Shown piece after piece: positions 9,961 through 64,000 of a stretch of 64,000 nt of DNA. The translations under genes and the position numbers were made by a program. The notes beneath the pieces are model-generated. The model worked only from the letters and a program-made list of their open reading frames with translations. It was not told the DNA's origin and made no database searches. Each line of letters begins with the position of its first letter. Position 1 is the first letter of the stretch. The stretch is from Trichodelitschia bisporula (taxonomy: Eukaryota), in NCBI GenBank assembly GCA_010356995.1, contig ML996692.1:1065933-1129932 (forward strand). Direction: 5' to 3'.

Positions 9961-11440
<1,480 letters not shown>

Positions 11441-12114
11441 GCGAGTTTTGATGCTGCCTAACGGGACGGTAGGTATTGCGCGCTAAGGGTTGTTATCGTT
11501 GAAGGTCTTCCTTTCGGGTGTCTGGGTTGGTTGGATGCGTGCCCCGACGCGCCTTTGAGCACACAGGATAGCGTGTGCGGTCAGAATGCCACATATTGTT
11601 CGGCGCTGACTCGGCTGGCGATGGGTCGGGTGGGAGAAAAGGGATATCTCGGGTTTGAGTGGCCTAATCGAGGGAAAGGGGTAGGTCTGTCGTAGCCCCG
11701 TTCTGAAGCTTTCTGCTGTATTAGATTATCGAATGCCCTCATAGCGTGTTGCTTGCCGTACCCGTACTTGTTCCACCACAAACGCACTCATGACTTGAAC
11801 AGCCCGAGCGTTTTGAAGTGTCAGTGTCATCACGTATATCACGAATCAACTGTAAAGTCATCTTTAGCACCCTCTCCTAATTCGTTTCGTGGGTGACTTG
11901 AAGGGCCGCTGGTGTCACCTCACTGCCAACCGGCTATTGACCGGAATGAGAGTAGCGGGGCCCATAGGGCTGAACAACACTTCATCACTGTGCACCCATC
12001 CCACTCGCGACGGCTTCAGGAAATTATTCCACACCCACGATTTTCAATTGCAAAGGTTTAGATTAGTATGGCTTCGCTATTCTTATAGCGAGGACAGAAC
12101 TCTGAAGCTTCATT

Positions 12115-14920: not shown

Positions 14921-15571
14921 GGAGCAGGAGACTCCTTCAGCGCTGTTTACGGCCGCAAGATATGAACGGTTTATCTGGCAGCGGGTATCTGAAGTTCGAA
15001 GACCGCTAATTGCTATTTCTTCTGCGCAGTGGCGGTACTTTGCGAGTATTATAACATGGCAGTGGCTTCGTATACTGACGGCATAGGTTGCTCTGTACGG
15101 AGATTGCGCGGGTTTGGAGATGGGTTACGAAAGCTGAATGTCCTCATGCCCGTTATGACCTAGCATTAGGTATCGAGATATAATGCCACAACACAAGTTC
15201 GGATGCTGTGCGGTGGGTCTATTGAACCAAGTGGTCGGGCTTCGGCCTGCCTCTAATCTGGGGAGTAAACATACTGTTGCGTTACTGATCACAGTTGATC
15301 CGATATTTAGCCTGCCAGAACGCGTGAAGCCGACCTCGCTTCCTGGATACATCCTGTACGCCAAGTATTCGGCCCCCCCGGCGTACGCGGGTAGCTAGCA
15401 ACACACCCAGTTTCCACCTGTGAGGAGGCGATAACCCACGCCTATGAGCTTCCTACTCCGGTAGGATCGTCAATTAGCTCAAGATAATAGCTCCTTCTCG
15501 ACGTCCTTATCCTGACCGGTGCTAGCATGCGATTGCGTTCTGCATGCAGAATGTTGCATTAGGCAACAACA

Positions 15572-15606
15572 ATGGATATCATGGATGGATATCATGGATG
15601 GATATC
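15572..15606. repeat. 13-bp tandem repeat (ATGGATATCATGG x ~2.7) upstream of the ABC pseudogene
   Basis: Directly visible in sequence. Confidence 0.8.
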
Positions 15607-15725
15607 CCATAAATTGTGCAAAGAAGAGCGCTCCTCCGGCCCCGAAATTCCATTCCTGGATCTCTCATCTGTGGGGAAGTTTTTCTGACTGACATCGCAT
15701 CTTTGCGACACCTTGGACAACCGCA

Positions 15726-18700
15726 ATGGTTCTCATCTGTCCCTTCGATACCACGTTCGGTCCTGCGGTGGGATCGTGTTGTGGTGGCTTTGACTTTACC
15801 TTGATATTTGAGGAGAGCATCTTGGGATTAGGCCCACAAGCTCTTTTGCTGATTCTTGCTCCAATTCGCGTGTTGACCCTTCGCAGACGGAGGAGAAAAC
15901 TGATTGAAAGTTCTCATCTTGGGTTTCTGAAGGCCTTCATATCCCTGGTGTACCTTTTGTCCAATGTCCTCCTTTTGGTACTATGGAGCCGACTCGCAGG
16001 CTTCAAAACCTCCGTGTCTCTGGCTTCCGAGACGATGGAATTGATGGCATCCATGGCTATTATGACCCTGTCCCGGCTGGAGCATACTAGAGCCGCCAGA
16101 CCTAGCCACCTGCTGCAGTTCTTCCTCGTGCTGCTCCTTTGCGATGCAGTTCGGCTGCGGACTCTGTTCTTGATGCATTTCTCTACCGGACTCGTCGTTT
16201 CGGCTTCGCTGCACACGTTCCTTACTGCTTTCATGCTCCTGCTTGAGTCGCTGGAAAAGAAATCACTTATGCCTGTGGATCCCAATGCGCGGACCTCGCC
16301 GGAGCAGACAATCGGACTGTTCAGTTAGAAGTTCTTTCTACACCTAAATGGTATCTTCTCTGCAGGTGAGCATCACAGGCCGAATCAACGAGTGCATGAT
16401 GACTGACTTCGGTGGTAGGCTACAAGAAGGTGTTAAAGCCGCAGGACCCCCACAACATAGACAAGGAGCTGTCGTCCGTTGAACTCCGCTTGGAGTTTGA
16501 ACGGGCATGGACATGATACCCCGACAAATCGTCCAAGTGGGCCATCTATCGCGTCATCTTCCAGGTCATGAAGGTGGATATCCTGGTCCCCATCATTCCT
16601 AAGCTCGTCTATTCAGCCACAAATCTTGCTCAGCCATTTCTCATCGGGGCGATGGTGAAGTTCATTGAGCGCACCCACAGTGATCCCTCGGTCAGTCCCA
16701 ATCAGGGTTATGGACTCATCGGCGCCTTCGCTCTTAACTACGGCTGTATGGCCGTTTTCAACGGCTGGTATCGGCAGAGCCTCTCCCGATTCTCCACCAA
16801 GCTCCGGAGTGTCCTGGTCGCTCTCATATATCAGCGGACTATCCGGATTCATTCCAAGGATGCCGACCTCGGGTCCGCGACCGTTTTGATGAATGCGGAC
16901 ATCGAAAAAGTCATGCAAGGCACCACTCTACTCCATGAATTCTGGATCTTGCTCATCAATACCGCCATTGCTCTGTACATCTTGTACACTCAGCTCGGGA
17001 TACCGTTTGTGGCGCCGTTGATGGTCTCGGTTTCCTCCATTGTCGCATGCTCCTATATTGGGAAGCAGATAAAGCCTCGACAGGCTGCGTGGGCGGCGGC
17101 AATGGAGAAGAGAGTCGTGGCAATATCCTATGCCGTGGAGGATATCAAGGGAATTAGACTACTCGGGCTCAGTGCGACGGTTCGAGAGGCGTTGAATCAA
17201 ATGAGGGCACTAGAGATTCTTGCGAGGAAGTGAGTTCATCAACCCCCGAGCAGATATCGTTGACCAACATTCTACAGGCGCCAATTTGATATCCAGATAA
17301 TTTTGCTATGGATTTGTATGTTTGATTCCCCGATCCACCTAATCACAGCCCGACCCTCGAGGTGAGCTAACATGATGTACGATTAGCAAATTCGACCTCT
17401 CAACTAGCCGCCCTCTTCACCTACCCGATTTTTGTCGGCATAACCCTAGTCAGTAACACGCGACATTTGAGCTTGCCTCTTCTCTTCTCCTCGCTCTCAG
17501 CGACAAAGCTAGTTACAGGACCTCTCATGCCAGCCTTGCAAATGATTATCGCCTTTGCCAACGCCATGTCCTCCATCGAGCGCATCCAGACCTACCTCCT
17601 CAAAGACTCCGCGGGCCACGAACTAGCGCCAGAAGTCGACGACACCAGTTTCAGAGACTCTCCCAGCGCTACAGAACTAAGAGAACTCCAAGCTCCGCAC
17701 AGAAAAGGCACCACAGTAGCGCACTATTCCAACGCCAGCTTCGGCCTCGAGCCAAGCTCACCCATCCTCCACGGCCTCAACTTCACCATCCGCCCCGGCA
17801 CCCTGACCATGATCGTCGGCAAAATCGGCTCCGGCAAATCGCTCCTTCTGCGCTCCCTCGTCGGCGAGATGTGGCTCACGTCCGGCGTCGCCACCTTCCC
17901 ATCCGCGGGTGTCGGGTTCTGCGCGCAGACGCCGTGGCTGCGCAACACCAGTGTCCGCGAAAATATCCTCGGGGAGGACGAATTTGACGATGAGTGGTAC
18001 GGCGCCGTGACACGCGCTTGCATGCTGGGCAAAGATTTTGAGGAGCTGCCTAAGGGCGATGAGACGCTGATTGGATCGAAGGGGATTTCCCTGAGTGGCG
18101 GGCAAAAGGGGCGGATTGCCCTTGCCAGGGCGGTGTACGCGAGGAAGCCGACGCTCGTGGTGGATGATGTGCTCAGTGGATTAGATAATACGACTGAGAC
18201 GCATGTGTGGAGGTGTGTCTTTGGGAACGACGGCCTGCTTAGGAAGGCGGTGACGACGGTTGTGCTGGCGACACATGCGGGCCATTGGGCGAGGGAGGCG
18301 GATGAGGTAGTTGTTATGGATGGATTGACGGTGGTTCAGTCGGGCCCTTACGACAGCATTGCGTCGATGGAAGAGTTCTGTATCCGGGAAGCGACAAGCA
18401 TACGGAAGTGGAGGCGGAAGATGACAAGTCGCCAGCGGCATCAACTGCGAAGAGGTCGGAAGAGTCAGCCGATGACGAGGCAGAAGATGACACGAGGCGT
18501 TCAGGGGATGCACGTTCACTTACGTTCTGGCTCTCTAGCGTTGGCTGGACGCATGTTGCGGTCAATATCCTTTTGGTGCTTCTTGCAAATGGCCTGACGA
18601 CTTTTCAATGTGAGTCGATGCCTTTTTCAGAACTTGGTTTCATCCGGCTAACATTTGTTAGATATCTGGCTCAAGCATTGGGCCGAGTCGGTTGGACGCG

Positions 18701-20493
18701 CAGCCATCATTTGTAATATGGTAGCCTTCATCGCCATCACTATTATCAATCTCATTGCCATACACCTTTGGTTCTTGTAAGATTCCATCTACTTGCCATG
18801 CTGTAGACTGACCTCTAGGCAATTCGGGTACATGTTCATGCTACGCGGTGGCGCGTCACTCCACGGAAGGCAGCTGAATGCCCTGATGAAGTACGAATGC
18901 CGCCCCTTCATCATCGCTTACATGACACTGACATCTCCGCAGAGCGAGCTTCTCTTTCTTCGTAGCCACGGATATCGGGAGCATCAACAATCGATTCTCG
19001 AGCGACATCACTCTCGTGGACATCATGTTGAACTCTGGGTGGATCAATACCAGCTGCGGTAAGTACGAACTATCGCTGCCCCTTACCGTAGCGAGATTTT
19101 GACTGACCTTCTCCCAGAACTGTACCTAGCCCTTGCGGGAACCGGCCTCATCGTCGCCGCAGCCCCTATCGTTGCTGCCCTTGTCACCTTCATGCTTGCT
19201 GCATGCTGGGCCATAGAGCACGTCTACCTGCGCACCTCGCGGCAATGCGGTTGATGGACATCGAATCCAAAGCACCGCTCTGCACGCACTTCCTCGAGAC
19301 CCTGTCCGGGATAATGACCATTCGTGCCTTCGGCTGGACCTCGCGCTACACGCAACAGAATGCCGCCCTCCTCGATGCCTCACAAGTCCCCTTCTACCTC
19401 CTCTCCGCAATCCAGAACTGGCTCCTCTTCGTGCTCGAACTCCTCGTAGCGGGGCTCATCATCGCAATGGTCGGTCTCTCTGTCGGTTTTCGCCACTCCT
19501 CCAGCCCAGGTTACCCCAGCCTCGCACTCGACGGTGCCGTGGACCTCAGTTGGAGTATCACGTACGTCGTCATCAGCTGGACGCAGCTGGAGACCTGTCT
19601 GAGTGCTGTATCACGCATCCGGCGTTTCGTACGCACGACGCCCACGGAGGAGGACGAAGGCCGCGCCGCGATTGCCCTGGGTCCGGATCCATGGCCCAAG
19701 CCGGGTACAGTGTGCTTCACCGATTTCTCAGCGGCGTACACTCCAGATGGAGATGCGGTCCTGCGGAGCGTGAGCCTGGATATCAAAGCTGGAGAGAAGG
19801 TGGGTATTTGCGGCCGGACGGGGAGTGAAAAGTCCTCGCTAGTCGCGACGCTGTTCGGCTTGTTGTACCCGCTGAGCGGAGAGTTGAGCGTGCATGGCCG
19901 GCTGGCGGAGGGGGTGCCGAAGGAAGCGCTGCGACAATCCATTGTGGCCGTGCCTCAGGAGCCGTTTTTTTTGCGGGATCGGAGTGTGAGGGCCAATCTG
20001 ACGCCGAGGGATGGTAGTGACGGTGCTGAGAAGCTGAAGGAAGCGCTGGAGGAGGTGGGATTGTGGGCGAGGCTGAAGGAGATGGCGGGCCAGGACGACC
20101 CGCTGGAGCTGCCGATGGCCGAGGTCGAGGGGAAGCTGAGTCAGGGGGAGAAGCAGCTGGTTTGCTTTGCGAGAGCGATGGTCACGGAGGGTAGTATTGT
20201 TGTTTTGGATGAGGCGACGAGCAGGTATGTGGACATGCTACTTCAGTATCGATGGGTGATGCTAATACACCCGCAGCGTGGACGCCGCCACAGAAGCCCT
20301 TATGCAAAAGCTCCTCCGCAAAGCATTCGTGGATAGGACCGTCATTGCGATTGCGCATCGCATGAACAAGATTCTCGATTTCGACCGTGTGGTCGTTATG
20401 AAGGAGGGCCGGGTTGCTGAGGTTGGCCCGCCGACGAAGTTGCTCGAGACTGAGGGAGGTCTGTTCCGTGAGTTAGTTGGGACGAAGGAATGA
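15726..20493 (+). pseudogene. Disrupted ABCC/MRP-type ABC transporter
   Basis: TMD0 (FDFTLIFEESIL), NBD1 GKIGSGKS/LSGGQ, NBD2 GRTGSEKS/LSQGEKQ/LDEATS. In-frame stops at 16326-16328 and 16514-16516, frameshifts near 18390 and 19245, Walker A G>E change in NBD2. Confidence 0.85.
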
Positions 20494-42922: not shown

Positions 42923-44359
42923 ATGGTCCCCAAACACACAACCCTCGCCTCATGGGCCCTTTCGCGGGGGATCGTGACGCACGGCGTGAAGCTTGCACCA
43001 ATACCCGGCAAAGGCATCGGGCTGATTGCATCGACCAAACTTTCTGTAAACCCTCCCTCCCTCCTGATATTCTTAAGCTAAGAATCTTAGAAAGGCGACG
43101 TCCTGCTCACTCTCCCTACCCCAGCAATCATAACTGAAGAAACGCCGCTCGTGCGGGATGTGCCTCAGCTCAAGGACGTGGTAGGTACGGTACACGGCCG
43201 CCTCGCGGCAGCCCTGCTCCTCAACTCCCGCACCCCTAACGGAGACGACGATGGGAACGGGGAAGCCGACCTCGGTCCCTGGCGCGAGGTCTGGCCGTCC
43301 CGGTCTGACTTCGCCAGCATGCCGCTCCTCTGGCTCGTGGAGGCGCAGCAGCGTCTTCTGCCAGAGTGCCGCGAGCTCCTTGCGAAGCAGCGCGCGAAGT
43401 TGGATACGGATTGGGCGGTGTATGGTCCGGCTCTGACGGAAGAGGGTGTGGAGCGGGAGGAATTTGAGTACTACTGGCTCGTAGTGAATACGCGGGTGTT
43501 TTTCTGGCCGCACGCGGTGCGATGGAAAGCGGGAGGAGCGGGGGGGGGGAAGAGGAGGAAGATTAAGAGTGTGAATCAGGATGAGTGCCTTGCGCTGTGT
43601 CCCGTGGCGGATTACTTGAATCATGCGGGCTCGGGGGTGAGTTGCTTCTGGGTCTGCACGGGTAAGGCTGACGGTTAGGGAGTGTGCGTTTGAGTCGAAT
43701 CCGCGCGAGTGTCGGATTGTGTGTGATCGCACATACGGTTTGTTTTCCTAGTCATGTTGGCGGGGTAGTGCTAACGGCGAGAAGAAGAGGGCGAGGAGGT
43801 CGTTGTATCCTACGGGCCGCATACGAATGCCTTCCTGCTTGTGGAGTACGGCTTCACGCTCAAGCACAACCCGCACGACACACTCTGCCTTGATAGTGTG
43901 ATATTACCGGGGCTGTCCGAGGAGCAAGAGGAGTGGCTCGAAGCGCATAATTACCTCGGGGGATACGTCCTCTCTTCCTCTGGTTTCTGTTTCCGCACTC
44001 AGGTTGCGCTGAGGGCAGATACGGTCGCGTGGGCAAACAGAAAGAACCCATGGAGGGAGCTTACCATTCCTGAGCAGGTTGTGCAGCTGGAAGCTTTCAT
44101 TGCCGGGGAGGATCCGGATAAGGATTTTTGGGGGAGTGATTTGATCGGTTGCGAGCACGATGTGAAAACCATGACGCTGGATGAGAAGGTGAAGGAGCTC
44201 AAGGAGCTCTGGGATGAAGACACGGAGAGAGGGGGGGAGGGAGCGGAGGTACAGGCGAGGGAAGGATTGTGGAGGGGAGCGATGCGGTTGATCGACATGG
44301 CAGATGACATTACGAGAACAGAATACGCCGTGTACCGGTTAAAGGAGGAAACACAATAG
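42923..44359 (+). CDS. SET-domain protein lysine methyltransferase (Rkm2-like), 3 introns
   Basis: IPGKGIGLIA, WLVVNTR, LCPVADYLNH, GEEVVVSYGPHTNAFLLVEYGF motifs. Confidence 0.88.
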
Positions 44360-51010: not shown

Positions 51011-52281
51011 TAATCTTGATAGTGACAGAATTGACGCTATGGGAGTCCCATGGCCCGGAGTCAGCACTAGACCACTTCTTTCCAAGCACGTGTGAATGAT
51101 ATTTGCGCATCCAAAAAGTCAGCCAATTAGTTAAATGAGTATGTGCTAGAATGAATTCCAGGAGCATGGGGATGATGAGAGCCAATAAAGTACCAAGAAG
51201 CCCTTGTCAAGGGGCACTGCTTGTAAAATCCTCTAATTTGGTTAGAGAACTTTGAGGACCACGGGGCCGAAGGGCACCGCTTGCACGTTTTGCAAGTATC
51301 GTGGGACCACCAGTGATCTGCATAGCACAACTCGGTGCATTGTGATGGGAAACGTGGGGCTAAAATAGCGTACCTGCCCAAGCATATAAAAGAATTTTGG
51401 TTGCGGTTCCACTTGTTGTTTGGCGGGAGGTCGGAAAAGCTACAAGATATGCTTGCATCCTCCTAACTGCCGGGCCAGTTAGGAAACAAAAGTTAGTAAC
51501 GGTTTTTTTTGTGTAAGAAGCTCTGCTTTCCGATTAGTCTGCTAGTTATAAAGACGTCAGCGAGGACACCTGCCATATAAAGATCAAAATTGTCATTTTG
51601 AGATCGTGCTGATTGATTAACTATTCCGAAGATACCCCCGGACTCGCATGCACACCCCATCTTAGTTAATATTAATATTAATATAATTTGTGGAGTTGTC
51701 GTTGCCATCGCAATACAGAGACACCATGCGGGTGCATTGTGATGATACATTATTCATGAGATCTGACTGTCCGAGAAAAATGGTTGGAACTGTACCTGGT
51801 CCAAAGCACTCATACTAAGATTATGCGGCAAATCCAGAAACTGGATAGACCGGAAAGCCAGAAAGCTTGATAATCAACCCAAACTGATTAACCTTTATTC
51901 CAGTTAGCGTCTTCTGATTGGCAGGGAGGGCTTGATATTAGCAGGTTTTGGATGCTTATGTTTTATAAACAGTTGTCCAAGAAAGTCCGGTGATGAACAG
52001 CAAATGATGCATGAGCCGGGCACACACGCGCTAAGGGGTAGGCGTACAGTCTTCTTTTTCTTTTTCTCAAGTTCTAACTGGCTGGGATTGAGATATCTAC
52101 TTGTCGGTGGTATCTTAATTCTTTTGCGGGTGCTTGGTAGTATTTCCCACTACAAGGACGATGGGTCGCGGGACGGTTGTGCTAGTCCTGTAGGAGTGCA
52201 CAGGCTAGTAGAGTTGGGAATCCATTGACGGAAACTTAACATAAAGGGAAAGGACGAGTACAATTAACTGAGCATTTTCTA

Positions 52282-52435
52282 TCCCTTAAATGGTCCAGGT
52301 ACTCGCTATCATGGACCAATGAAAGGGCAAAAATTCGGTTCCGTAAAAGACATGTTACCTTCTGCGAGAAATCTGAGCTCTTTTATTGGTCCAGGATGGC
52401 GAGTACCTAGGCCAGTGCCTGGGCCGTATGAGGAA
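52282..52435. mobile_element. MITE-like foldback, same family (copy B)
   Basis: AGGTACTCGCTATCATGGACCAAT pairs with ATTGGTCCAGGATGGCGAGTACCT; ends TA-TCCCTT and GAGGAA-TA. Confidence 0.65.
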
Positions 52436-52621
52436 TAAGGTATCACTAGCGCTTGGGAAATTATGTGAACACTTCCAAAGGCTTCTGTAAATTAAGAGCA
52501 ATGTATAGCAAACCCCGGCAGCAATGATGCATGTGGACCACGGAATGGGTGACGACTAAACATGTGCCTTACACATTTCAACTACAGAGATATTCCAAGC
52601 ACGCATCATACATTGCCCCTA

Positions 52622-53363
52622 AGCCACCACAAAGCTTACGGCCCGCAACCGAAACCCCCCAGGAACTCCAAGAGGGCCGGAAAAGCTCAATACAACGGAG
52701 GTCACAGACCTCACCACACGACACCACGCAGCCGAAACCCAATCCCCGTCCTCAGGGTCAACACCGTCCCCCAACCCAGCAGCAAACCCCCCGAAGTGCC
52801 CTTTCCCCAACCACAAACACAGCATACTAGGACAGCATAACACTAGGAGTAGCAACAACACCAGTCTACCCACACGTGATGAAGAGCGGATTCAACACCA
52901 CTATTGCTACCAGGAACCGGATCTCCGCCAAAGGGGAGCCGCCGCGGCCCCCCCTGGCGGCCTCCGGACACCACCTGGCATTCTTAAATATCCTTCCTCT
53001 CCTTCTCTCTTTCGATCACATGACCTAGAATCACGGGATCTGCGTTGCTGTAGGCGTTCGGCGTTTTTGGGGTTTAATTGGGATATGGAGTTTTTCTCAG
53101 TTTCTCGGCGTGCAGCCAAGTTCTCGCTTGGGACACACAAGAATGGTGCAAAGAAAAGACGATAAACACATGTAAAAGGCGTGGGGCTCACATGCCCCTC
53201 TCCAAAGGACGACTTCCAGGGCTTTTCCTCAACCCTTCCAGGGAGGGTTTTTGCCGTGTAGGACCAAAGAAATTGGTCAAACCCACTCCTAAAGTGGTGA
53301 GACCCGACCATACGGCTAGCTAAAACAAGCCTGGGCTATTATTATCATTATTATTATTATTAT
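52622..53363 (+). mobile_element. 5'-truncated LINE fragment (3' UTR only) with (TAT)n tail
   Basis: Near-identical to the reverse complement of 55613-56170; ends in TATTATTATCATTATTATTATTATTAT. Confidence 0.8.
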
Positions 53364-53893
53364 GTAAGGTCCGTATTCCAATTTTTGGGCATTGGAGTAG
53401 GGCTTTTAAAATTACACGTCACACAAGTCCCGCAGGCAAAGCCATACGTGCAAGGACTTTATATTACCCTTAATATCTAGTCTTCGTTGAACGCATCCGG
53501 GGTCCGATGGCACTGTTATGGTTGCTGATGATAGGAATTTTGTTTGTTAGCTGACTCAGATTCTGAACAAATTTGAGCCTTTTTATTGGTTTATGATAAG
53601 GAGTACGTGACTCAATACCTGGGCCGTAAAAGGGATGGTATATGAAGGATGGCGTAGCTAGCAGCTTTTGTTTGTTTAGTTTCTGTACCAGCATTTGATG
53701 CAGCTCCAGATTTGCGATATACACGATGTTTGCGTTACTTACGTCTAGAGGACATGTGCCCTGCGATTCAGTTTGAAGTATCGCCATATAGCTTTGGGTC
53801 AGTGGAATATTAATATCATCCTCCTTTTGCACACCTTTGTATAAACTTCCTCGTGCGAGCAAATAGGCACGGATTCCATAATAGCCTGAGATA

Positions 53894-54049
53894 TCCCTTG
53901 TACTGCTGGGGCCCTCGCTATGGTACTTGTAACTGGCGAATTAATCGGAGAACAATTTCCCTTGCGGAGCGGTTGTGTTAACAATATTTGCTCTCTGATT
54001 GGTCTTCCAGTTATAAATACCCTGGCGAGGACGCCTGCAGGATAAGGGA
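53894..54049. mobile_element. MITE-like foldback, related subfamily
   Basis: TCCCTT...CCTCGCTATGGTACTTGTAACTGG arm pairs imperfectly with CCAGTTATAAATACCCTGGCGAGG...AAGGGA. Confidence 0.6.
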
Positions 54050-55612
54050 ATAACCACACCTATAGCTCCCCAGCCCAACCAACCCGATGATAGCGAAAAA
54101 GAGAAGGCCGCGAAATGAATAATGCAAGGACCAAATATCCCCCTCATTTTACTTTTATAGACCCCCCATCAAACCTCGACACCAAACTTCAGGGCGTGAT
54201 GCACCCATGCCTAAAGATGAATAGAGATAGGCTTCGCATCATTTGGAATGACCTCGACAAGGCAACTAACTGGGTAACACTTTCATTGTGTTAAACAGCT
54301 TTGCATGAATATATTGTCATTCAAACTTATGTTGCTCGTTGCAGCTTCAAGACTCTGTTACTGCGAAGGGTACATTAAACCTCAAAATAGTTAAAGGCAA
54401 AATTTAAAGTTGCGATACTCACATTATAGTCGGCTCAAGATAAGGTACCAGATTACTTGCATCTTCCAAGCGCCACTGAATATGTAAAATGCGGGTTGAT
54501 GAACCATTGCTGCATGCGAGCATTGCGAGGGACTGTAGACTTTGGTGGTGTTTTGGTAGGGGAATTTTCCATAATTCGTGGGCCTGATTGACTGATTTTA
54601 GTGGTTGGGCTGGGTTAGGTGGGGGGGATGTGGGGGACGCGGGGACTAGAGTTTTGAAGATCTTGGGCGTTCTCGTAGTACTTCCCGACATCAGCTCCCT
54701 TATGCCGGAATCACACAACCTATGGGCGTAACCACCCTAGGAAGGCCGCGCGGTAAACGCGTGGAGAGTCCTATGGCCCTTACTGTTGCTGCAAACTATA
54801 AGTGCATCATCGTCATCATGCCGAGACCACTAACATTACATTACTCGCCAGAAGCCCATGATTTTCCACTTGTTACAACCGCTTACGGCGGACTCTCTTT
54901 GCACCTACAATAACGGAATGTCCCATAGATTGTTTTAACAGGCTGTCTGACTTCTTTCCCCAGACTACCCGTCTCCTAATTGGCTGAATTAGAGCGGTGT
55001 GTATGTGGGGCGTGGTTCCCAGGTTTTAGGGTATGTGCCTAGGTTATTCTAGCTGATACAGGCTAGAACTTACAATCAAAGCTTCAATGTAGCTCATGGA
55101 CAAAGTCTGGTAAGGATCCTAAGATAGCCCCATTGTGGAATATTGGCCCGGGTAGTTGCCGCAATGGCTTAGGATTTTATTGCTCTAGCACTGGGCTTCT
55201 TAGCCGACCTGGTTTAAAACGAGAAAACATTTTCCCACATAGGCCCCGGCTCCAGAAAACTTCCAACATACTCATGTCATTGAGACGTATGTAAGGAGCT
55301 ATTATTAACCAGGCAGGCTCTGCTTTTAAACTGCTAAGTTTAGGTACAACTTGTAGCAAGGGAGCTTACTAAACTTGTGTCTCTATTTTTCTAACGTGAG
55401 ATTAACCCGAGGAGACATAAACGAGGCCATATGTTAGGTTTGTATGCTCAGGATTTGAGGTTACGCGGGCAAAATAGCGCTCCACCTGAGCCTGCATTTT
55501 TTCCAAAACCTGTCTTCCGTTTGGTTGCAGTCCACTATCAAAGCGAGGGGATGCACGTAAGATATGCACCTCGGAACCTAGGATGGGCACTTCATAGATT
55601 CCTTCTTCTATA

Positions 55613-56823
55613 ATAATAATAGCTTGATTACGCCCAGGCTTGTTTTAGCTAGCCGTATGGTCGGGTCTCACCACTTTAGGAGTGGGCTTGACCAATTTCT
55701 TTGGTTCTACACGGCAAAAACCCTCCCTGCAAGGGTTGAGGAAAAGCCCTGGAAGTCGTCCTTTGGAGAGGGGCATGTGAGCCCCACGCCTTCAACATAT
55801 GTTTATCGTCTTTTCTTTGCACCATTCTTGTGTGTCCAAAGCGAGAACTTGGCTGCACGCCGAGAAACTGAGAAACACTCCATATCCCAATTAAACCCCA
55901 AAAACGCCGAACGCCTACAGCAACGCAGATCCCGTGATTCTAGGTCATGTGACCGAAAGAGAGAAGGAGAGGAAGGAAATTGAAGAATACCAGGTGTTGT
56001 CCGGAGGCCGCCAGGGGGGGGGGGGGCGGCGGCTCCTCTTTGGGGGAGATCCGGTTCCTGGTAGCAAGTGTGGTGTTGAATCGTTGAATCCGCTCTTCTT
56101 ATTGAGCTTTTCCGGCTCTCTTGGGGTTCCTGGGGGGTTCCGGTTGCGGGCCGTCAGCTTTGTGGTGGCTCGCTTTCATCCGGTTCACTTCCAGTCTCGC
56201 TAGGAGATTGTGGATTTATGAACAGTTTGTTGGGTGTGGGCTGCTTTTTTCCCACATCTCGGGTTCCGATTGGCGGAATTCTTTAGCTAGCCTGAATTGG
56301 CCGATGAAGCCTCTGTTGATGATGTAGTTTGTGACTGCCTCTAGACCTCTCCTAGTGTTGATCATTTTGTTGTAGTCAATCGTTCTTGCTAGCTCGTAGA
56401 GCTCGGAGCGTTCCGCTCCGAGCGTGCAGCTCATGACCATATGCTTGGGTGTTTGTCGCCCAAATCCGCAGGGGCACCGGGGGGAGTCAAATGTCGGGAC
56501 TCCTACTCTGAAGAGGAAGTCTCGCAGTCCAATGCATTCAGTGCGTAGTTGTGTTGCTACGGCGCTGTTGGCCTTCAGTAGTCCACCATGGAGGTTGGGG
56601 ACGTATTCCTTCCAGGGGGTGTGCCAGGCTGGTGCCTGTTTGTGTCCGTTGGTTCTCCACAGGGCTTCCCATTCTTGGTTCTCCCAGTCGCGGAAGATCG
56701 TTCTTGGCGCCTGGGAGGGGTCTGCCGCGGCCACGATCGCCTTCGCTTCCATGAGCATTTTGTCTTCAGGGTATGTGGGTTCTGGGGGCCTCCGGCCTCT
56801 TCGCGGGGTAGTTCCGGCCCAGT
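55613..56823 (-). mobile_element. 5'-truncated Tad1-like non-LTR retrotransposon (ORF2 C-terminus, 3' UTR, (TAT)n tail) with 14-bp TSD
   Basis: Peptide QLRTECIGLRDFLF...CPCG...QTPKHMVMSC...GFIGQFRLA (CCHC knuckle typical of fungal LINE ORF2); TTCCTTCTTCTATA repeated at 55599-55612 and 56824-56837. Confidence 0.9.
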
Positions 56824-57775
56824 TTCCTTCTTCTATATGTCCCTTGGTTCGTGTAATTTGCAGCACAATAAGAAGAGAGAGATAATCCCAAGCACACCCG
56901 GAATCAGGTACACATTCCCATGTTAAAACCAAAGCCGTATGGGAGCCTCGACGTCAAACGACCGGCCGTAACGTATGAGGGTGGAATGTATTGGATAAGC
57001 ATTGCCTCGACGAAACTCGGAGTTTAACACTTCTTTTGACGCGAAACACTCGTGGGAAATAGTGGCATTTAAGTGCAAGGATAGCTTGCTGTCCATAAAC
57101 ACCAAGACCACTTCAGATTTTCGGACTTCCACTTCAAGTCGCAATGCATTCATGGTTCATGAATATCCTAGGGGCACGTATACAGAATAGTCCCCGTAGA
57201 ATGCTGTAAAAGAGCGCAAGTCAGCACCTACAGGGGCTTTAGTAATTTTGGGCGATGGTTCTAGTAACTCGGGGGGTGGTTCTAAGGGTAGTCTTTTTCT
57301 ACGCTGGGAGCTACGCCTTTTTCCCAAATATATCACACTTGAAGACCCGGATGCCGCACTTACCGACTGGAATTCAATGCTCATATTGCAGTAACAGATC
57401 ATCGTAGCTCATCGTAAATTTTACTCAGGCACGTACGGATAGCAGACGGCACTGATCCCAATGCGCACTTTGATCGGAGGTCCTCAAAATTCCTCTTAGG
57501 TCGAAGATGTATAATAGTGCTTTGGCAGATTGTGCGGCGATTATGCAGCCAATCCGAGCTACTCAAACAATTGTTCTGTCAACCATTTTGACACAAGCAA
57601 AGCACTTAGTGCTCGCAATTTCCCTTTACCAAGACGTATGTGATCATGATAGCCTCAAATCGTGGGAATATATTTATTTTCTGAAGAATGATTATACATA
57701 CGAGCCCTCCGTTTTTTGGGTCCTGATGCCGTGAATGATGTTGAGGAAGACCTTTTACTTTGTCAGTTCATGTTA

Positions 57776-58471
57776 GGGTACTTGGAAATCTACAGCCCTC
57801 CTGGAAACCAGTCCTAAAAGGGTAAAGTCTCCTAGAAACCCATGCGCTTGAACACTCCACCATTAACACCGCTAGACTTATGTTTACCTACGTATATGAC
57901 GCCAAGACCCTATTAAAGACCTCTCGTAAAACTTTAAATCGCGATGCACTCATACTAAAAAATTATATAAAGTTATAATTAGGCTCATTTTGATTGCCTT
58001 AATGCGGCGAGTATTTCGGTACTACTTTCATCAAAACTGCGTTGCGTGGTAGGGAGTTATCGCGGGTTAAAGGTTTTGCGGTTAAGTGTGGCTAGTAGCA
58101 GTTTAAGTATTCCGGCGCTAAGACCCTACTAAAAAGTGGTAAAACTTTGAGCCGCGATAACTCCTTTGACAGCAACACTACGGCGGCGAGGTCAATGTTA
58201 AAATACTCGGCGCATCAAATAGATCACAATAAGCTAGGTTCTATGTTTATATAATTTTCTCGTACACGTGCATCGCGACTTAAAATTTATTGTCAGCTTT
58301 TAATGGGGTCTTGGCTGAGATTTCTAGGGTATAGGGGTGGTGTGGCTGGAACGGCAGTATTTTGGCGCTAGTTATGAATGCGTAGGGATTGTTGACAGAC
58401 TATACTATTTTGGAACTAATTTCCCAGAGGGCTGTAGATGTAAGTTTTTGGCTATAGATTTACAAGCACCC
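57776..58471. mobile_element. 696-bp non-autonomous foldback DNA element with GGG...CCC termini and TTA TSD (PIF/Harbinger-like)
   Basis: TTA|GGGTACTTGGAAATCTA ... TAGATTTACAAGCACCC|TTA; inner arms GCCAAGACCCTATTAAA/TTTAATGGGGTCTTGGC and GGAGTTATCGCGG/CCGCGATAACTCC. Confidence 0.8.
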
Positions 58472-59084
58472 TTAATGTTACTCCTCCCCCGCCGCCCCTC
58501 GAACGAGTGGCCAGTCAGACCCGTGGGTTTCGCGAAGTCACTCTACCAGAAATTCACTCCTTTAAGTAATGAACTCGTGTGACGCAGTTTGAGAAAGCCT
58601 GTGTCATGGTTCTGGCCATACAGGGTGTGATGCCTCAGGCCATGATGTGGCCAGGGTGGTAGCATAGGACCGAGATAACGTATGGGAACCAGCGTAGTCA
58701 TGTGACTGGCGCCAAGCCCCCACACTGCGGTTATGCTTTTGCACACCCATCCCTGTAGATTACTTCTCCAACTCTTTATCATCGTCTCGAAGCAATCTAT
58801 CGTTTTTGCACCGCTCTTCGCTGGCATCGTGTCAGGCAGAAGTGCTGCCAAATTACTCAGTTTGCCAAAGTGGGTCTGAGGATTTAAGTGATATTTTTTG
58901 ACCTCGGGTACAAAAGTGCATCGCCACTTGAAGTTACGGTATTGAGATTTGAGGGCGTTACGGAGAGGTGGAGTGTATACACGTAAATTGAAGCGCTCTT
59001 CCCTCACCTAATATTCTCTGATAATCCAATCAAAATGTTGAGATTGAACATCGTGCCGCAAAATAGTCATGCGATGTTCATTTT

Positions 59085-59246
59085 ACTCTGCGCGCCCTCG
59101 CTGGAGTCCTCATGGCTTGTGGACCAGTCCGAGAGCAGGATTTCTTTACATAAACAGCTGTTAAGAGATTATGCCCTCTAATTGGTCCGCTAGTTACAAG
59201 GGCGCCGGCGAGGACACCCGCGAGGATGCCCGCAGTATGAAGGATA
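59085..59246. mobile_element. Degenerate MITE-like foldback related to 53894-54049
   Basis: CCTCGCTGGAGTCCT...GGACCAGT arm vs ATTGGTCC...AGGGCGCCGGCGAGG; shares the CTAGTTAYAA...GCGAGGACAC motif with ~51541-51580. Confidence 0.5.
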
Positions 59247-60116
59247 GATGCATTGTGATGATCTGTACACTGCTTGATTTTCAAAGACGAGCCCAGTAGT
59301 TTGACAATTCATTTGATCCAATGCACGCACAGGAAGGGTTGTCATTCTACTTCAAAATTGGGGTGACTTTGATGTGATGATTAGCTGGCAAAACTTTCTG
59401 TTTCTGATTGACTGGACTGGGCGGCGTGCGCCCAGTAGTTCTACTGGCTCACGACAACCTCCCCCGGTTTCACGTGAAAATCACAACTCTGCAGGCCAAC
59501 ATGTAGCTACTATTGTCACAGCAGAAACGATAAATGACATATTGATATCGGTGAAGTTTTCCAGCCACTACTGTCATACCAGGCTGGTCCCGTCGAACTG
59601 GAGACATAGGAATATGGGCGGACCCACGATCCCGGTGCGCGTCCAGATCTTCCAAGCTGTGAACCGCGTCTTTTGGGCTCACATATGCACAAGGACTGGA
59701 AGCGGCCTGGAGTATTTCAGTTTCGTCAATTGCACCGCCGACAAGGCCGGGCTTTCCCAGCACTGGGGATGAGCGGGGGACGTCGGCTAGACGTAGAATA
59801 GTGCGGGCATTCGTCCCGGTTACCAGTTACCGAGTCACGTCCATCCGGTAAGCAATTCTGAGAAGTGGGTGGTGGTCGGGGCAGGACTTGGTGGTGGGAG
59901 TTCAACTACGTCAAATCCGACGCCGGCTCCCCGTCGCAGATAGCAACGGGTTGCCGTCATCAGGCGAAGCACGCGATTCGACGGGCAAGTACGAGGCACC
60001 GAGAACAGCCAGCCAGATAAAATACAATATTAACAACAAACAGTTCTGTCCAGCACGTCCGAACATCTCGACCGCGCATCTACAAGGATATCAATACACA
60101 CAGCGTCGTCAGCAGA

Positions 60117-61973
60117 TCACGCAGGTACGCCCTCATACTCCCACACATCGCCCGCGCGCCTCCTTCTCCGGCCCCTACGCTCCCTCCTCCGATTCGCCGC
60201 ACACTTGACGAACACCGTCAACGCAGCAATGAGGAAGACGATCACAGCCGCGACCGTGGGCACCACAACCGCGCGCTGTCGCTCCTCTCCCGCCGCACTA
60301 CGATACGGACACACGCCATCAACCCCCACAACCCAGCACCCCTCCACATCCAGAGCATTCAGATCCACCCACGCCTCGGCATCACCCGTGCCGTTGCTCC
60401 CCTCGCGCCGCACCAGCGCCCCCAGCACCGTATTCTCCGCCGCCGTCCGCGGCACACTGAACGCCGCGCCTGACGGACACACCCCCGCGGCGCTGGCTCC
60501 GCGGTATGTCGTGCGCGTTGCCGCAATGCGCCAATTGAACCCTGCCTCGCCCACCCGGCATGCCACGGGGTGCTTCTCGGCACAGTCGGCGACGCGCCAG
60601 CGCGGCGGGCTGAGATTTGCGTCGAGCAGAGCGCAGCGCTGGCGGTCGGGCGTCCCGGACGCGCTCGTCGAGCTATTGTGTGGCTCGCCCGGCGCCCAGG
60701 ACCAGAGTGCACCGCGGGCGAGGGCGACGTAGGGGCTGGGATTGGCGGAGGCGGGGCGTGAGAGAGAGGAGTTGAGGAAGGGGGAGAAGGCGCATGTGGT
60801 AAGGTTCGTAGCTGCTGCCGCGGTGTAGGGGGAGGGAAGGACTGCGAGGGCCCAGGACGTGTCTGAGGATGAAGGGGCGCAGGCGGATGGGAAGAAGGAA
60901 AATATGTTGGATGGGAAGAGGGTCTCGCTGTCGCCGGATAAATTGTACCGCTCAAGCTGCGGGTCGATGCTACCCAGTCCGGCGAACAGCCGGAAGCTAC
61001 GGCGGAACTCTACGTACCCCTCGCTTGGCCATCCGCTCGTCGTGAAAAGGTTACCGCGCGGATCTGGCGTTGTCTCCAGGTATGTCAGGTAAGGGCGCTG
61101 GTCAGCTGGTGCGGAGAGCCACGAGCCGTTGAGGTTCGCGCGGTCTTCTCCGAGTTGTGTGGGCGTGTAGAGGTAGGACGAGAGATTCTGGGATAAGATC
61201 TCGCTGACTAGCTCGCTGGGTGTTGGCAGAGAAGTGCCGTTGAGGGCAAGGCCAGGAGAGAGCGGAGAGTTAAAGGGTGAAGCCACGTGCAGGTTTAGCG
61301 TTAGATACGTCAGAACAGCCGCCAGCGTGTTCGATGTGAGCTTGAGGTAGTCCGCCAGCACCGAGGCCAGTATCGGCAAATCAACCGACGACGTGCACTG
61401 GTACGGGCCGATGCGAACGATGTCCGTTCCCTGCGGCGGAGGCGGGGCCGTTGCTGTCCCATTTTGGGGCGAACCAGGGGCAGACGAGGAGCCATCGGCG
61501 GATGAAGTTACAGAGCCGACCTGGCGAGCCTCAACGGCAACGGGTGTCGGAGCTGCCCGATTACTCAACTGCACCGATGTCACGCTGACAGACGACGACG
61601 CGGGCTCGGAGGGGGCACTACTCGGCCCCGCGGCGCGCGTGGCATTCGACAGCTCGACGGGACACAGGCTCCACACGCGGCGTGACTCGTCCCAGTAGAG
61701 GTCGACGAAGAGCTTGCGGAAGCCGGCAGCCAGGAGGTTGCTAAGGCAGCGGCCAGCGGCCACGTCCTCGTACGAACCATCGCCGAAACAGGCGGCGGTG
61801 AGCGAAATGGCGGGCTGGATGACGTAGTTGATGGGGACGCGGAGGGCGAGATCGCGCTGGGACTGGGGCCGTTAGTTGGGGAGCTATCGCCAGGTGGAGG
61901 TGCATACTAGAAAAGCGGTTGACCAGGGCGGCGTTAGCTCCGCTAAGGGGTCCGGTCGATAGAGCTGAGGCAT
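60117..61973 (-). CDS. MTC6: MTC6-like membrane protein (C-terminal lectin-like region and TM helix), 1 intron
   Basis: Spliced start MPQLYRPDP...SQRDLALRVPINYV; GFRKLFVDLYWD...WSLCPV; WSWAPGEP...RCA; FSVPRTAAEN; WVDLN; C-terminal EYEGVPA. Confidence 0.88.
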
Positions 61974-62547
61974 GGCGCCAGACGCGACTGCATCATCCGG
62001 GTGAGGATATGTGTGGACATGGAAGGTTTGGCTCAATTCTCAATGTGGATGTGCGGATATGCCGATCTGTACGTCCGGGGATTCAGTGGTGATCCGTGGA
62101 TGCGATGCTAGGATGCCGGGCCGGTGATTGTTAGGTTAGGCAGAGATTTGGGGTTGCTGCTCAATGCTATAAGCGGACTTGCACGGCAGTTCTAATGTCC
62201 ATCCGGATGAGCGTCAAGGGGACGGTTGGAGGTTGTTGGCCATTGGGCAAAATGAAGATGAGGTTTGGGAAGACGAGATGATCGTCGTTGGAAGTGACGT
62301 TGAGGCGTGGCTGGGCATCGGTGGCTAGGCAGATGTGGCTGTCGGCCAATTGATGTTCGGCGACGTCGCGGAGTGACAAAACAACGAGAAACACGTGAAT
62401 CGGATCTCTACCCGCGTCGATCATTGCTGTTCCTCAACACCATATCTCAAATCGCCATTATTATGATCGCCATCTCTTCCCTCCCGTTCATTCCTTGCGT
62501 CCATGCTCATCTCTTTGCCTTTCAACGATTTACCTTTAGCCCTGTGG

Positions 62548-64000
62548 CATTCCTGCATCACCGCTTTCCGTGGACCTTGCTTACAGTGGCACTGTTGCTG
62601 GCATTGTTAGGCCTATACCACTTCCACTGTCCGGCTGGGTACTTCGTAGTCTACCCGGCGCACAGTGGTGGGGACTTACCTTGAAACTTCAGGTGGTTCG
62701 GTAGACAGGAATGATCCCCTCCGAAAATCATCTCCCACTCGCAAAAGACGTCTGTTGATCAGAGATTTAGCTCCCAGTATAACCCCCCACACGCTAACCG
62801 CGCATCTTTGGTCTACCGGCTGTTGGGGTAGTGAGCGCTACTGACTCCGCACGGTGGAGTACCGTACCGTACGGGCAGTAGCGCGCATGAACCACGAGGC
62901 CGGGGGACCGTTGGGCTAACTACCCCCAAACCTGCCGTATCGGACTCGCCGCAACCGCGCCAAACCGGCCTAGAGTAGGGCAACTTGAGCGTCAACGGCC
63001 GCTCAAAACCCCATACTCCCCCTCTCAGTCAGCGGAAACAAGCAAACCCCCAGACAGAGAGCCTCAAACCTCCCCTCAGTCCTCAATCAAACCAATCCGA
63101 GGCCACGCTCACCCTCTCGCGCAAACTGGAATTCCCCCTGCCAGCCGCCAGCCACACGCCGCCCCCATCGGGCCAACATACGCCCGTGCCTCCCCGGCCT
63201 CCTCCAAACGGTCGACCTCTTCCCCCACCACCCCAAAGCAGCCTAGCGACCTGCCGCGTTTCCTTTTTCGCGACGACGCGTGCGCCTCATTGGGCGCGCC
63301 GTCCGCCATCCGGGCGACGGTTCTCGCCTCCACCGCGTGCTCACCCGCCGTGCCGAGGGTGGGCAGCGCAGACGACGCCTTGGCCCCTTCGCTTCCGGAA
63401 AAGAAAGCGGCCTTCTAGCCCTGCCCGCCGCCGACGCCCTGCCAACGGTGCGTTGGTGGAGCCCGTCGGTGCGGGATTCGGCTCATGCGGTGGGGGCAGG
63501 GCGGGAGGGGGAAAGTCGACACGGAGGACGAAGAGGAAGCGTGGACTCGCGACGGGGCGCCGCCGAAGCGCGCAACCTACCGTACTCGAGCCGAGCAGGC
63601 GCTGGACGACGATACCGGACGCACGCATCGAGTTGCGCTCGCCTTCCCCTCCCTCCCCGCATCAGACCATATTCACCACCATGATCGCGCACACTGCACC
63701 GCCGCCGTTTCGCCGCGCTCCCCTCTCAGCTCAACCGCATCTGGCCATCCGCTCAAACCGGGCAGCCATCCCCCAACCGCCGCCGCGTGCCCAATCCGCG
63801 CAAAGCGCATAATCGCGTCCCCGCTTGCAGCATCTGGGCCCCCTGACACACTGCATCACGACCCGCCGAGGGCCGGATGCGGTTGTTGCAGCGTGGTTTG
63901 GGCCGGATTGGGAGTGTGGGTTGATTGAGTTTGGAGGGGGCGGTGCGGCCGCGTGGTGCTCGTGGGAGGCGGGTGGGCGGACCGTTGGGGGAGGGAATGG
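62548..64000 (+). ncRNA. Candidate large structured RNA (or highly structured 5' leader), running off the window end
   Basis: More than ten mutually compatible nested stems of 6-15 bp including ~1 kb long-range pairings; wobble pairs consistent with plus strand; no credible protein ORF. Confidence 0.55.

What the first reader, a model, noticed from the sequence alone, without database searches (positions are those of the whole stretch)
62548..64000. Candidate >1.4 kb highly structured plus-strand RNA divergent from MTC6
Seen: nested, collinear long-range stems 62993-63005/63974-63987, 63072-63077/63934-63939, CTCAATCAA 63082-63090/63921-63929, 63092-63099/63904-63911 and 63101-63109/63890-63898. 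These enclose subdomains 63211-63226/63507-63520, 63253-63270/63396-63411, 63338-63346/63357-63365, 63418-63426/63494-63502 and a 15-bp stem CAACCGCATCTGGCC 63732-63746/63871-63885. Upstream modules: 62548-62555/62706-62713 and 62624-62641/62652-62668. The non-Watson-Crick pairs I checked are G-U on the plus strand (A-C on minus), which argues for RNA structure on one strand rather than a DNA palindrome. No ORF here looks protein-like. Inference: a large ncRNA. Pezizomycotina telomerase RNA is a known ~2 kb multi-arm RNA and is a candidate, but I found no TAACCCTAA template in the window, so a novel lncRNA or structured leader of the next gene is equally open.
Basis: partly seen in the sequence, partly recalled or inferred. 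Interest (0 to 1): 0.82.

Follow-up and report, generated by a model that had tools for sequence, protein, structure and literature searches.

The report
Chance stems in an ordinary noncoding transcript
The listed stems are in the sequence, but they are what a C-rich stretch beside a G-rich stretch gives by chance, and the region is a gene's leader with an intron, a promoter gap and an ordinary unspliced noncoding transcript, not one large folded RNA.

Summary
For the RNA-covered part 62943-63991 the plus-strand folding energy is z -1.3 to -2.0 against global and skew-preserving shuffles. The minus strand is +0.1 to +0.9. The C-rich left arm and G-rich right arm pair no better than their own shuffles: 251 of 400 shuffles do as well. 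Stem excess lies inside the range of 60 control segments of the same window.

Contigs of two runs that carry spliced cDNA show that 62548-62801 belongs to the minus-strand MTC6 leader. A separate unspliced contig covers 62943-63988.

The covered part has no coding signature, no Rfam match and no telomere template of 7 or more bases. It is single copy in the DNA runs.

Verdict: this is an ordinary promoter-proximal noncoding transcript, most likely divergent from MTC6. It is not telomerase RNA and not a specially structured RNA. Its strand and true ends remain open. Interest is low.

The parts
62680..62801 (-). First (5' leader) exon of the MTC6 mRNA as far as the RNA contig reaches
   Evidence: X3 contig 21 (2662 nt) lies on 60013-61862, 61908-62597 and 62680-62801 with 0 other letters.
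62598..62679 (-). 82-nt intron in the MTC6 5' leader (GTAAGT ... CTAAC ... CAG on the minus strand).
   Evidence: The joint 62597/62680 skips 82 nt with ends CT..AC in X3 and X4 and is absent from DNA runs X1 and X2. The intron fold is -28.9 kcal/mol, z -2.23, with 4 of 200 shuffles as good.
61908..62597 (-). Second exon part: the rest of the 746-nt, uATG-rich (16 ATG) MTC6 leader and the start of the coding sequence (ATG near 61975)
   Evidence: The product matches PF25506 at E 4.6e-30. It is 100% identical over the 581-aa query to a 603-aa NCBI protein.
62816..62903 (.). Imperfect DNA palindrome between the two RNA contigs, presumed promoter region
   Evidence: The DNA fold of 62815-62935 is -30.9 kcal/mol, z -3.08, with 1 of 200 shuffles as good. 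Inverted 9-mers GCGCTACTG lie at 62835 (+) and 62876 (-). The promoter role is inferred.
62943..63991 (.). Unspliced transcribed stretch without coding signature. The strand is not shown; plus is favoured weakly.
   Evidence: X3 contig 22 (1046 nt) lies wholly on 62943-63988. X4 contigs lie on 63055-63419 and 63394-63991. No frame shows GC3 periodicity and no frame has a Pfam match. ORF147 finds only itself, and the 277-codon open frame finds 0 relatives. The plus strand has 3 ATG against 16 on the minus strand.
63072..63109 (.). Left copy of a short degenerate inverted block chain (CCCCTC / CTCAATCAA / CCAATCCG / CCACGCT)
   Evidence: It is marginally more than chance.
63890..63939 (.). Right, inverted copy of the same block chain, with 9- and 6-nt insertions between blocks

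Best explanation
The 1.45 kb is not one folded RNA. It has three ordinary parts.
1. 62548-62801 is the 5' leader of the MTC6 mRNA on the minus strand, with a canonical 82-nt intron. This is shown by spliced contigs.
2. About 140 bp, 62802-62942, carries an imperfect palindrome. I infer that this is the TATA-less promoter region.
3. 62943-63990 or so is an unspliced transcribed stretch of about 1.05 kb with no coding signature. The cover is shown; the strand is not.

My best guess is that part 3 is a plus-strand noncoding transcript that starts divergently from the MTC6 promoter. I put about 0.45 on that orientation and origin, and about 0.6 on plus strand in any form. Any effect it has would come from the act of transcription at a shared promoter, not from a defined fold.

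The nested long-range stems arise from base composition. The left 300 nt are 45% C and 19% G, and the last 140 nt are 50% G and 19% C. Any two such stretches pair about as well.
For: Splicing and cover. Joints 61862/61908 (45 nt) and 62597/62680 (82 nt) have CT..AC ends, which read GT..AG on the minus strand. They occur in X3 and X4 and not in DNA runs X1 and X2. Removing them gives a 603-aa MTC6 protein. X3 contig 22 and two X4 contigs cover 62943-63991 unspliced.

Folding.
- MFE z for the transcribed stretch, plus strand: -1.34, -1.78 and -1.97, with 2, 2 and 1 of 30 shuffles as good. Minus strand: +0.86 and +0.12.
- Arm duplex energy is -138.5 against -140.8 +/- 6.3; 251 of 400 shuffles are as good. 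With block-50 shuffles, 187 of 400 are as good.
- 150-nt sliding windows: plus mean z -0.07 with 1 of 19 below -2; minus mean z -0.58 with 2 of 19 below -2. The background is -0.26 and -0.19 over 125 windows.
- Eight of the 10 stems have pair probability 0.0.
- Enforcing the 7 gapless stems costs +33.3 kcal/mol.
- Stem-excess z is 2.53 (stems of 8 or more) and 2.19 (10 or more). These are matched or passed by 5 and 7 of 60 control segment-strands.

Non-coding.
- Position-specific GC is flat in every open frame. The 277-codon frame has GC3 0.66 against GC12 0.68, whereas long ORFs with coding-like composition in the window show GC3 0.68-0.76 against GC12 0.52-0.61.
- None of the 8 frames has a Pfam match above threshold.
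- ORF147 finds only itself among 5.8 billion clusters.
- The 277-aa frame finds 0 hits at E <= 0.001 in 1.84 billion representatives.

Plus-strand hints. ATG is depleted on the plus strand: 3 against 8.4 or 7.0 expected, P 0.014 or 0.031. The palindrome lies between the two contig ends.
Against: A weak plus-strand-only signal exists. The MFE is about 2 SD better than block shuffles. There are 362 positions with 8 or more pairs against 285 +/- 38, reached by 3 of 100 shuffles, and the minus strand shows no excess. The block chain 63072-63109/63890-63939 is rare in arm shuffles, 1 of 1000. Its two-block pattern occurs only at these two sites in 64 kb.

Thermodynamic z-scores cannot exclude a structured RNA, because many real lncRNAs and telomerase RNAs score poorly.

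Covariation could not be tested at all. The strand, the true ends and the separation from the MTC6 leader are not shown: contigs carry no strand, X3 and X4 are one sample, and the record lists them only as guessed RNA. Unspliced cover could in principle be DNA carry-over. The window ends at 64000, so a continuation cannot be seen.
Confidence: 0.62

Rival explanations
1. One reading: a truly structured plus-strand lncRNA whose C-rich 5' part and G-rich 3' end pair into a closed multi-arm fold.
For: The RNA contig ends (62943, 63988-63991) lie just outside the outermost stem 62993-63005/63974-63987. Only the plus strand shows an excess of stems and a lower MFE. The collinear block chain is reached by 1 of 1000 arm shuffles.
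Against: The arm duplex is no better than shuffled arms. The proposed stems are absent from the ensemble and cost +33 kcal/mol. Local z-scores equal the background. 5-7 of 60 control segment-strands show as much stem excess. There is no Rfam match at E <= 1.
Confidence: 0.08
2. Minus-strand RNA: a distal-start extension of the MTC6 leader, or an upstream transcript running into the MTC6 promoter and interfering with it.
For: The MTC6 leader is already long (746 nt) and rich in uATG, with 16. The stretch has a similar ATG density on the minus strand, also 16. The right end is C-rich on the minus strand, like a leader. Contigs carry no strand.
Against: No listed contig or joint links 62943 to 62801, and GC rather than CT follows 62801, so there is no acceptor site there. 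ATG is depleted on the plus strand, not the minus. The minus-strand MFE is no better than shuffles.
Confidence: 0.2
3. Plus-strand 5' leader of the next gene, which lies beyond base 64000.
For: The plus strand has few ATG: 3 in 1049 nt and none in the first 542. Neither end of the stretch has an A/T-rich poly(A)-type region like the one at the MTC6 3' end. The DNA contig runs on for 7174 nt past the window.
Against: Both RNA runs stop at 63988 and 63991, and no RNA contig reaches 64000. This is only a weak hint, because both runs are from one sample. A leader of more than 1 kb would be unusual; that rests on my own knowledge.
Confidence: 0.15
4. Pezizomycotina telomerase RNA.
For: It is a long non-coding Pol II-type transcript beside a telomere-capping gene, and such RNAs are 1.5-2 kb and multi-armed (PMC3592445, passages read).
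Against: No 7-, 8- or 9-mer of the CCCTAA repeat lies on either strand in 62800-64000. No Rfam family matches at E <= 1. The contig is only 1046 nt long.
Confidence: 0.01
5. Remnant of an inverted-repeat mobile element (63072-63939) that happens to be transcribed.
For: The collinear inverted blocks 63072-63109/63890-63939 differ by insertions, as a decayed terminal inverted repeat would.
Against: The region is single copy. Long DNA contigs at flat depth (X1: 12382 nt, 399.7; X2: 9585 nt, 204.4) run through it, while true repeats at 56000-56800 and 58400-58936 reach depths of 5000-19000 and break contigs. There is no target-site duplication: the flanks read AAACCT and GCGGTG. No transposase-like ORF is present.
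Confidence: 0.05
6. An mRNA for a small orphan protein, either the 147-aa ORF 63485-63928 or the 43-aa ORF at 63681 that has an ACCACCATGA start context.
For: An ATG-free plus-strand leader is followed by the ORFs, and the second ATG has a strong start context.
Against: GC3 shows no enrichment (0.704/0.657/0.686). The ORF finds only itself. It has no Pfam match.
Confidence: 0.05

Closest known systems
Promoter-associated divergent noncoding transcripts of fungi (yeast CUT/XUT/SUT-type RNAs from bidirectional promoters). The kind is named from my own knowledge. Of the reviews PMC6097775 and PMC12566771 I saw only the listing and abstract start.
   Same: It is an unspliced stretch with no coding signature. 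It lies about 140 bp from the 5' end of a protein-coding mRNA on the other side of a TATA-less gap, and no conserved fold is evident.
   Different: The strand, cap, tail and stability are not shown here. At 1.05 kb it is at the long end for such RNAs, and its G+C content of 67% is high.
Pezizomycotina telomerase RNA (Neurospora crassa TER, 2049 nt; PMC3592445, passages read)
   Same: It is a long noncoding transcript in a filamentous ascomycete.
   Different: It has no template and no Rfam match. It is about half the length.
Upstream noncoding transcription that represses the gene downstream (the yeast SRG1-SER3 type; recalled, no paper read)
   Same: It would apply if the RNA is on the minus strand and runs toward the MTC6 promoter.
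   Different: The strand is unknown, and no contig bridges into the promoter.
Long, uORF-rich, intron-bearing 5' leaders of fungal mRNAs
   Same: 62548-62801 is exactly this: part of a 746-nt leader with 16 uATG and an 82-nt GT-AG intron.
   Different: Nothing differs. This part is ordinary.

Membership tests
Pezizomycotina telomerase RNA | A template complementary to the telomere repeat (9 nt in N. crassa; PMC3592445) | tested here: not met
   No 7-9-mer permutation of CCCTAA lies on either strand in 62800-64000. The nearest is CCTAACC on the minus strand at 62134, inside the MTC6 leader. This assumes TTAGGG telomeres, which I did not verify for this fungus.
Pezizomycotina telomerase RNA | A conserved template-pseudoknot domain and three-way junction recognisable by covariance models | tested here: not met
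   cmscan of 58000-64000 against all 4227 Rfam families at E <= 1 gave only a chance miRNA hit at 58120-58312. That Rfam holds an ascomycete telomerase family is my recollection.
Pezizomycotina telomerase RNA | P6.1 hairpin (4-bp stem, 5-nt loop NUNGN) | not tested
   The motif is too degenerate to search on its own without the family alignment.
Structured noncoding RNA (generic) | Folding energy or pairing beyond composition-matched and skew-matched shuffles | tested here: not met
   with controls.
Structured noncoding RNA (generic) | Compensatory base changes in relatives | not testable with these tools
   No genome is held for this window. The nearest MTC6 relative is 45% identical. Two metagenome scans found nothing.
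Divergent promoter-associated lncRNA | Transcribed, with no coding capacity | tested here: met
   RNA-derived contigs cover the stretch. Coding tests are negative.
Divergent promoter-associated lncRNA | Opposite strand to the neighbouring gene, with a start close to that gene's start | tested here: inconclusive
   Contigs give no strand. Plus-strand ATG depletion at P 0.014-0.031 and the palindrome between the contig ends are only hints.
Inverted-repeat DNA transposon or MITE | Several copies in the genome, and terminal inverted repeats flanked by a target-site duplication | tested here: not met
   DNA contigs of flat single-copy depth run through the region. No duplication flanks 63072 and 63939.

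The most novel reading that the evidence does not exclude
A plus-strand lncRNA divergent from the telomere-capping gene MTC6 whose C-rich 5' arm and G-rich 3' arm close into a panhandle. The helices would be 62993-63005/63974-63987 and 63072-63109/63890-63939. Such a fold could protect a non-polyadenylated RNA or couple its level to MTC6 promoter activity. Three observations leave this open: the plus-only stem excess, the block chain, and contig ends that lie just outside the outermost stem.
Probability: 0.06. Interest if true: 0.5.

Novelty: new member of a known kind. Interest (0 to 1): 0.14.

Why it matters
A large structured RNA beside a telomere-capping gene would have been a lead to a fungal telomerase RNA or to a new lncRNA class. 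The tests show an ordinary case instead.

The useful outcomes are modest.
- A caution for sequence reading: where a C-rich stretch faces a G-rich one, long nested stems appear by eye. Only skew-preserving shuffles and control segments from the same genome expose them as chance.
- Annotation detail for this fungus: MTC6 has a 746-nt leader with a spliced 82-nt intron, a palindromic upstream region, and a neighbouring stretch of about 1.05 kb with RNA cover and no coding signature.

Tried and rejected
- Own genome: none is held, so nothing beyond 64000 and no copy count by search.
- Earlier notes of this scan: none by place or by sequence.
- The look-up of sequencing runs: no RNA holder is listed on record. 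X3 and X4 are marked only as guessed RNA. I treat them as RNA-derived because of their spliced joints.
- Parts without RNA cover: 62802-62942, 63992-64000, 57068-58402 and 58937-60004. X3 and X4 are one sample, so their shared stop near 63990 is not two independent studies. I note only that the DNA runs cover these parts at the same depth as the rest. Contig depths (X3: 185.5 against 23.2; X4: 88.9 against about 9) are means per contig and I do not use them to rank expression.
- Relatives for covariation: the metagenome scan with MTC6 peptides gave 128 pattern matches and 0 relatives. The scan with a 21-nt stretch of the block chain gave 0 matches.
- A first local alignment with lenient gap costs gave a meaningless end-to-end alignment and was discarded.
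- Sense-strand GC skew as a strand indicator: the long ORFs of the window range from -0.38 to +0.15, so there is no rule to apply.
- tRNA scan of 62000-64000: 0 genes.
- The direct repeat GGACCGTTGGG at 62905 and 63979: with up to 1 mismatch allowed, 42 of 100 shuffles give 2 or more matches, so it is not significant.
- The fixed-gap pattern was ill-chosen and found nothing.
- One search returned no answer. Searches hit the time limit, so the minus-strand block-50 test and the first scan of the target region are missing. One search repeated that scan.
- The segment 1000-2048 scored z 8.5 in the stem test, but it is a G-run and T-run 3' region, that is, low complexity.

Full report
**Observation.** A script confirmed all 12 arm pairs at the stated coordinates. 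Eight are gapless. Five of those are fully Watson-Crick and three carry 1-2 G-U pairs, 4 in all, every one G-U on the plus strand. The other four need a bulge or mismatch.

**What the RNA data show.** No genome is held for the window. One run search found two DNA runs, X1 and X2, which are one sample and may be the source. It also found two runs marked as guessed RNA, X3 and X4, which are also one sample.

I laid all four on 56000-64000. X3 and X4 carry two joints that X1 and X2 lack. One is 61862/61908, skipping 45 nt. The other is 62597/62680, skipping 82 nt. Both have CT..AC ends, which read GT..AG on the minus strand. X3 contig 21 (2662 nt) lies on 60013-61862, 61908-62597 and 62680-62801 with no differing letters.

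Joining these exons gives a 603-aa ORF that starts near 61975 behind a 746-nt leader with 16 uATG. The product matches the MTC6 TIM-barrel family PF25506 at E 4.6e-30. Over the 581-aa exon-2 query it is 100% identical to a 603-aa NCBI protein named for Trichodelitschia bisporula, and the next relative is 45% identical.

So X3 and X4 carry spliced cDNA, and 62548-62801 of the finding is the minus-strand MTC6 leader. The 82-nt intron reads GTAAGT ... CTAAC ... CAG.

A separate unspliced contig, X3 record 22 (1046 nt), lies wholly on 62943-63988. X4 contigs lie on 63055-63419 and 63394-63991. Contigs give no strand and no true ends.

**Coding potential.**
- No stop-free frame of 60 or more codons in 62943-64000 shows third-position G+C enrichment. 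MTC6 has 0.62/0.585/0.749, and the long ORFs with coding-like composition elsewhere in the window have GC3 0.68-0.76 against GC12 0.52-0.61. The longest open frame here, 277 codons at 62979-63809 with no ATG until 63681, has 0.66 against 0.68.
- None of the 8 frames scanned has a Pfam match above threshold.
- The 147-aa ATG ORF (63485-63925) finds only itself among 75 candidates from 5.8 billion clusters.
- The 277-aa frame finds 0 proteins at E <= 0.001 in 1.84 billion representatives.

**Structure tests.**
- For the whole finding, 62548-64000, the plus-strand MFE is -620.5 and the minus-strand MFE is -685.0. Against 12 shuffles each, the plus strand scores z -3.4 with global dinucleotide shuffles and -2.1 with 100-nt block shuffles that keep the skew. 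One block shuffle beat the native sequence.
- For the RNA-covered stretch, 62943-63991, with 30 shuffles per test: plus z is -1.34, -1.78 and -1.97 (global, block 100, block 50), and minus z is +0.86 and +0.12.
- The best gapped inverted-repeat alignment is the '15-bp stem', score 27. Between 96 and 205 of 300 shuffles reach it under three scoring schemes.
- The base composition explains the long-range stems. 62943-63250 is 45% C and 19% G, and 63851-63991 is 50% G and 19% C. The duplex energy between these arms is -138.5 kcal/mol. Shuffled arms give -140.8 +/- 6.3, and 251 of 400 do as well. With block-50 shuffles, 187 of 400 do as well. The minus strand behaves the same way.
- In the ensemble for 62943-64000, one of the 10 stems is present (63211/63507, probability 0.81), one has 0.165 and eight have 0.0.
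- Enforcing the 7 gapless stems raises the energy by 33.3 kcal/mol. The four outer stems alone cost 23.3 and the 15-bp stem alone costs 10.6.
- Sliding 150-nt windows give a mean z of -0.07 on the plus strand (1 of 19 below -2) and -0.58 on the minus strand (2 of 19). The 125 background windows from 52000-58350 give -0.26 and -0.19.

**Results that lean the other way.**
- Positions with 8 or more consecutive Watson-Crick or G-U pairs are more frequent than in block shuffles on the plus strand only. The stretch has 362 against 285 +/- 38, reached by 3 of 100 shuffles. The whole finding has 626 against 508 +/- 47, reached by 0 of 100. On the minus strand 31-51 of 100 shuffles reach the native count.
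- The same statistic on 30 other 1049-nt segments of the window, both strands, has mean z +0.81 and SD 1.62. Five of 60 reach the stretch's z of 2.53, and 7 of 60 reach its 2.19 for stems of 10 or more. The excess is therefore ordinary for this genome.
- The collinear exact blocks 63072-63109/63890-63939 are rare in arm shuffles: 1 of 1000 at k 6 and k 7, and 18 of 1000 at k 8. Over the whole stretch as search space, 10 of 300 (k 7) and 29 of 300 (k 8) shuffles hold as good a chain.
- The two-block pattern occurs only at these two sites in 64 kb, but I defined that pattern after seeing it.

**Telomerase RNA.** Passages of PMC3592445 give the defining features. These are a 2049-nt N. crassa RNA with a 9-nt template, a template-pseudoknot domain, and a three-way junction with a 4-bp P6.1 stem and an NUNGN loop. 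No 7-9-mer of the CCCTAA repeat lies on either strand in 62800-64000, and no Rfam family matches at E <= 1 in 58000-64000. I assumed TTAGGG telomeres.

**Transposon.** DNA contigs of 12382 nt (X1) and 9585 nt (X2) run through the region at flat depth. Real repeats at 56000-56800 and 58400-58936 reach bin depths of 5000-19000, against 400 for single-copy sequence in X1, and they break contigs. No target-site duplication flanks the block chain.

**The gap.** 62816-62903 is an imperfect palindrome. Its DNA fold scores z -3.08, with 1 of 200 shuffles as good. It was also the most structured 150-nt window on both strands, at -2.04 and -2.99. It lies between the two RNA contigs. I infer that it is the promoter region.

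**Reading.** The region holds an ordinary MTC6 leader with an intron, a palindromic upstream region, and an unspliced noncoding transcript of about 1.05 kb. I favour the plus strand weakly, for three reasons: ATG depletion (3 against 8.4 or 7.0 expected, P 0.014 or 0.031; the minus strand has 16), the slightly better plus-strand folding, and the palindrome lying between the contig ends. That would make it a divergent promoter-associated transcript. A minus-strand distal leader and the leader of the next gene remain open.

**Limits.**
- There are no stranded reads.
- Only one RNA sample is available.
- No sequence beyond 64000 could be read.
- No relatives close enough for covariation were found.
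- I did not open any supplements of PMC3592445, which might list a telomerase RNA from this class.

Noticed in passing
window 56000-56823 and 58598-58831: High-copy repeats. DNA-run bin depth is 5000-19000 against about 400 for single-copy flanks in X1. Many short contigs carry variants, and loose ends at 56823, 58601-58602 and 58831 mark the element borders. X3 and X4 also cover them, so they are probably transcribed.
   Followed up: no
window 62816-62903: An imperfect palindrome of about 90 bp, with inverted GCGCTACTG 9-mers and a central CCGTACCGTACGG, lies between the MTC6 leader contig and the neighbouring RNA contig. Its DNA fold scores z -3.08. It is a candidate symmetric promoter element.
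   Followed up: partly
window 61975-62801 (minus): The MTC6 leader is 746 nt long with 16 upstream ATG, including an 85-codon uORF. In X4 the contig breaks at 62323, so a shorter main leader is possible.
   Followed up: partly
window 62131-62141: GTTAGGTTAGG lies on the plus strand inside the MTC6 leader. On the minus strand it holds the CCTAACC hit at 62134, the nearest 7-mer telomere-template-like match to the finding. I judge it chance.
   Followed up: no
window 1400-1970: A G-run and T-run rich stretch follows the end of an ORF near 1408. It gave an extreme plus-strand G-U stem excess (z 8.5 and 11.4) in the control test. It is a low-complexity effect, not a fold, and it holds no tandem repeat.
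   Followed up: partly
window 43000-44048 and 55000-56048: These control segments showed a stem excess of z 3-4. In 43000-44100, searching for inverted repeats of 16 nt or more, the repeat finder reported only one 21-nt inverted repeat, 43149/43858. The 55000 segment borders the high-copy repeat.
   Followed up: partly
window 63681-63812 (+): A 43-codon ORF has a strong ACCACCATGA start context inside the transcribed stretch. I did not search it for homologues on its own.
   Followed up: no
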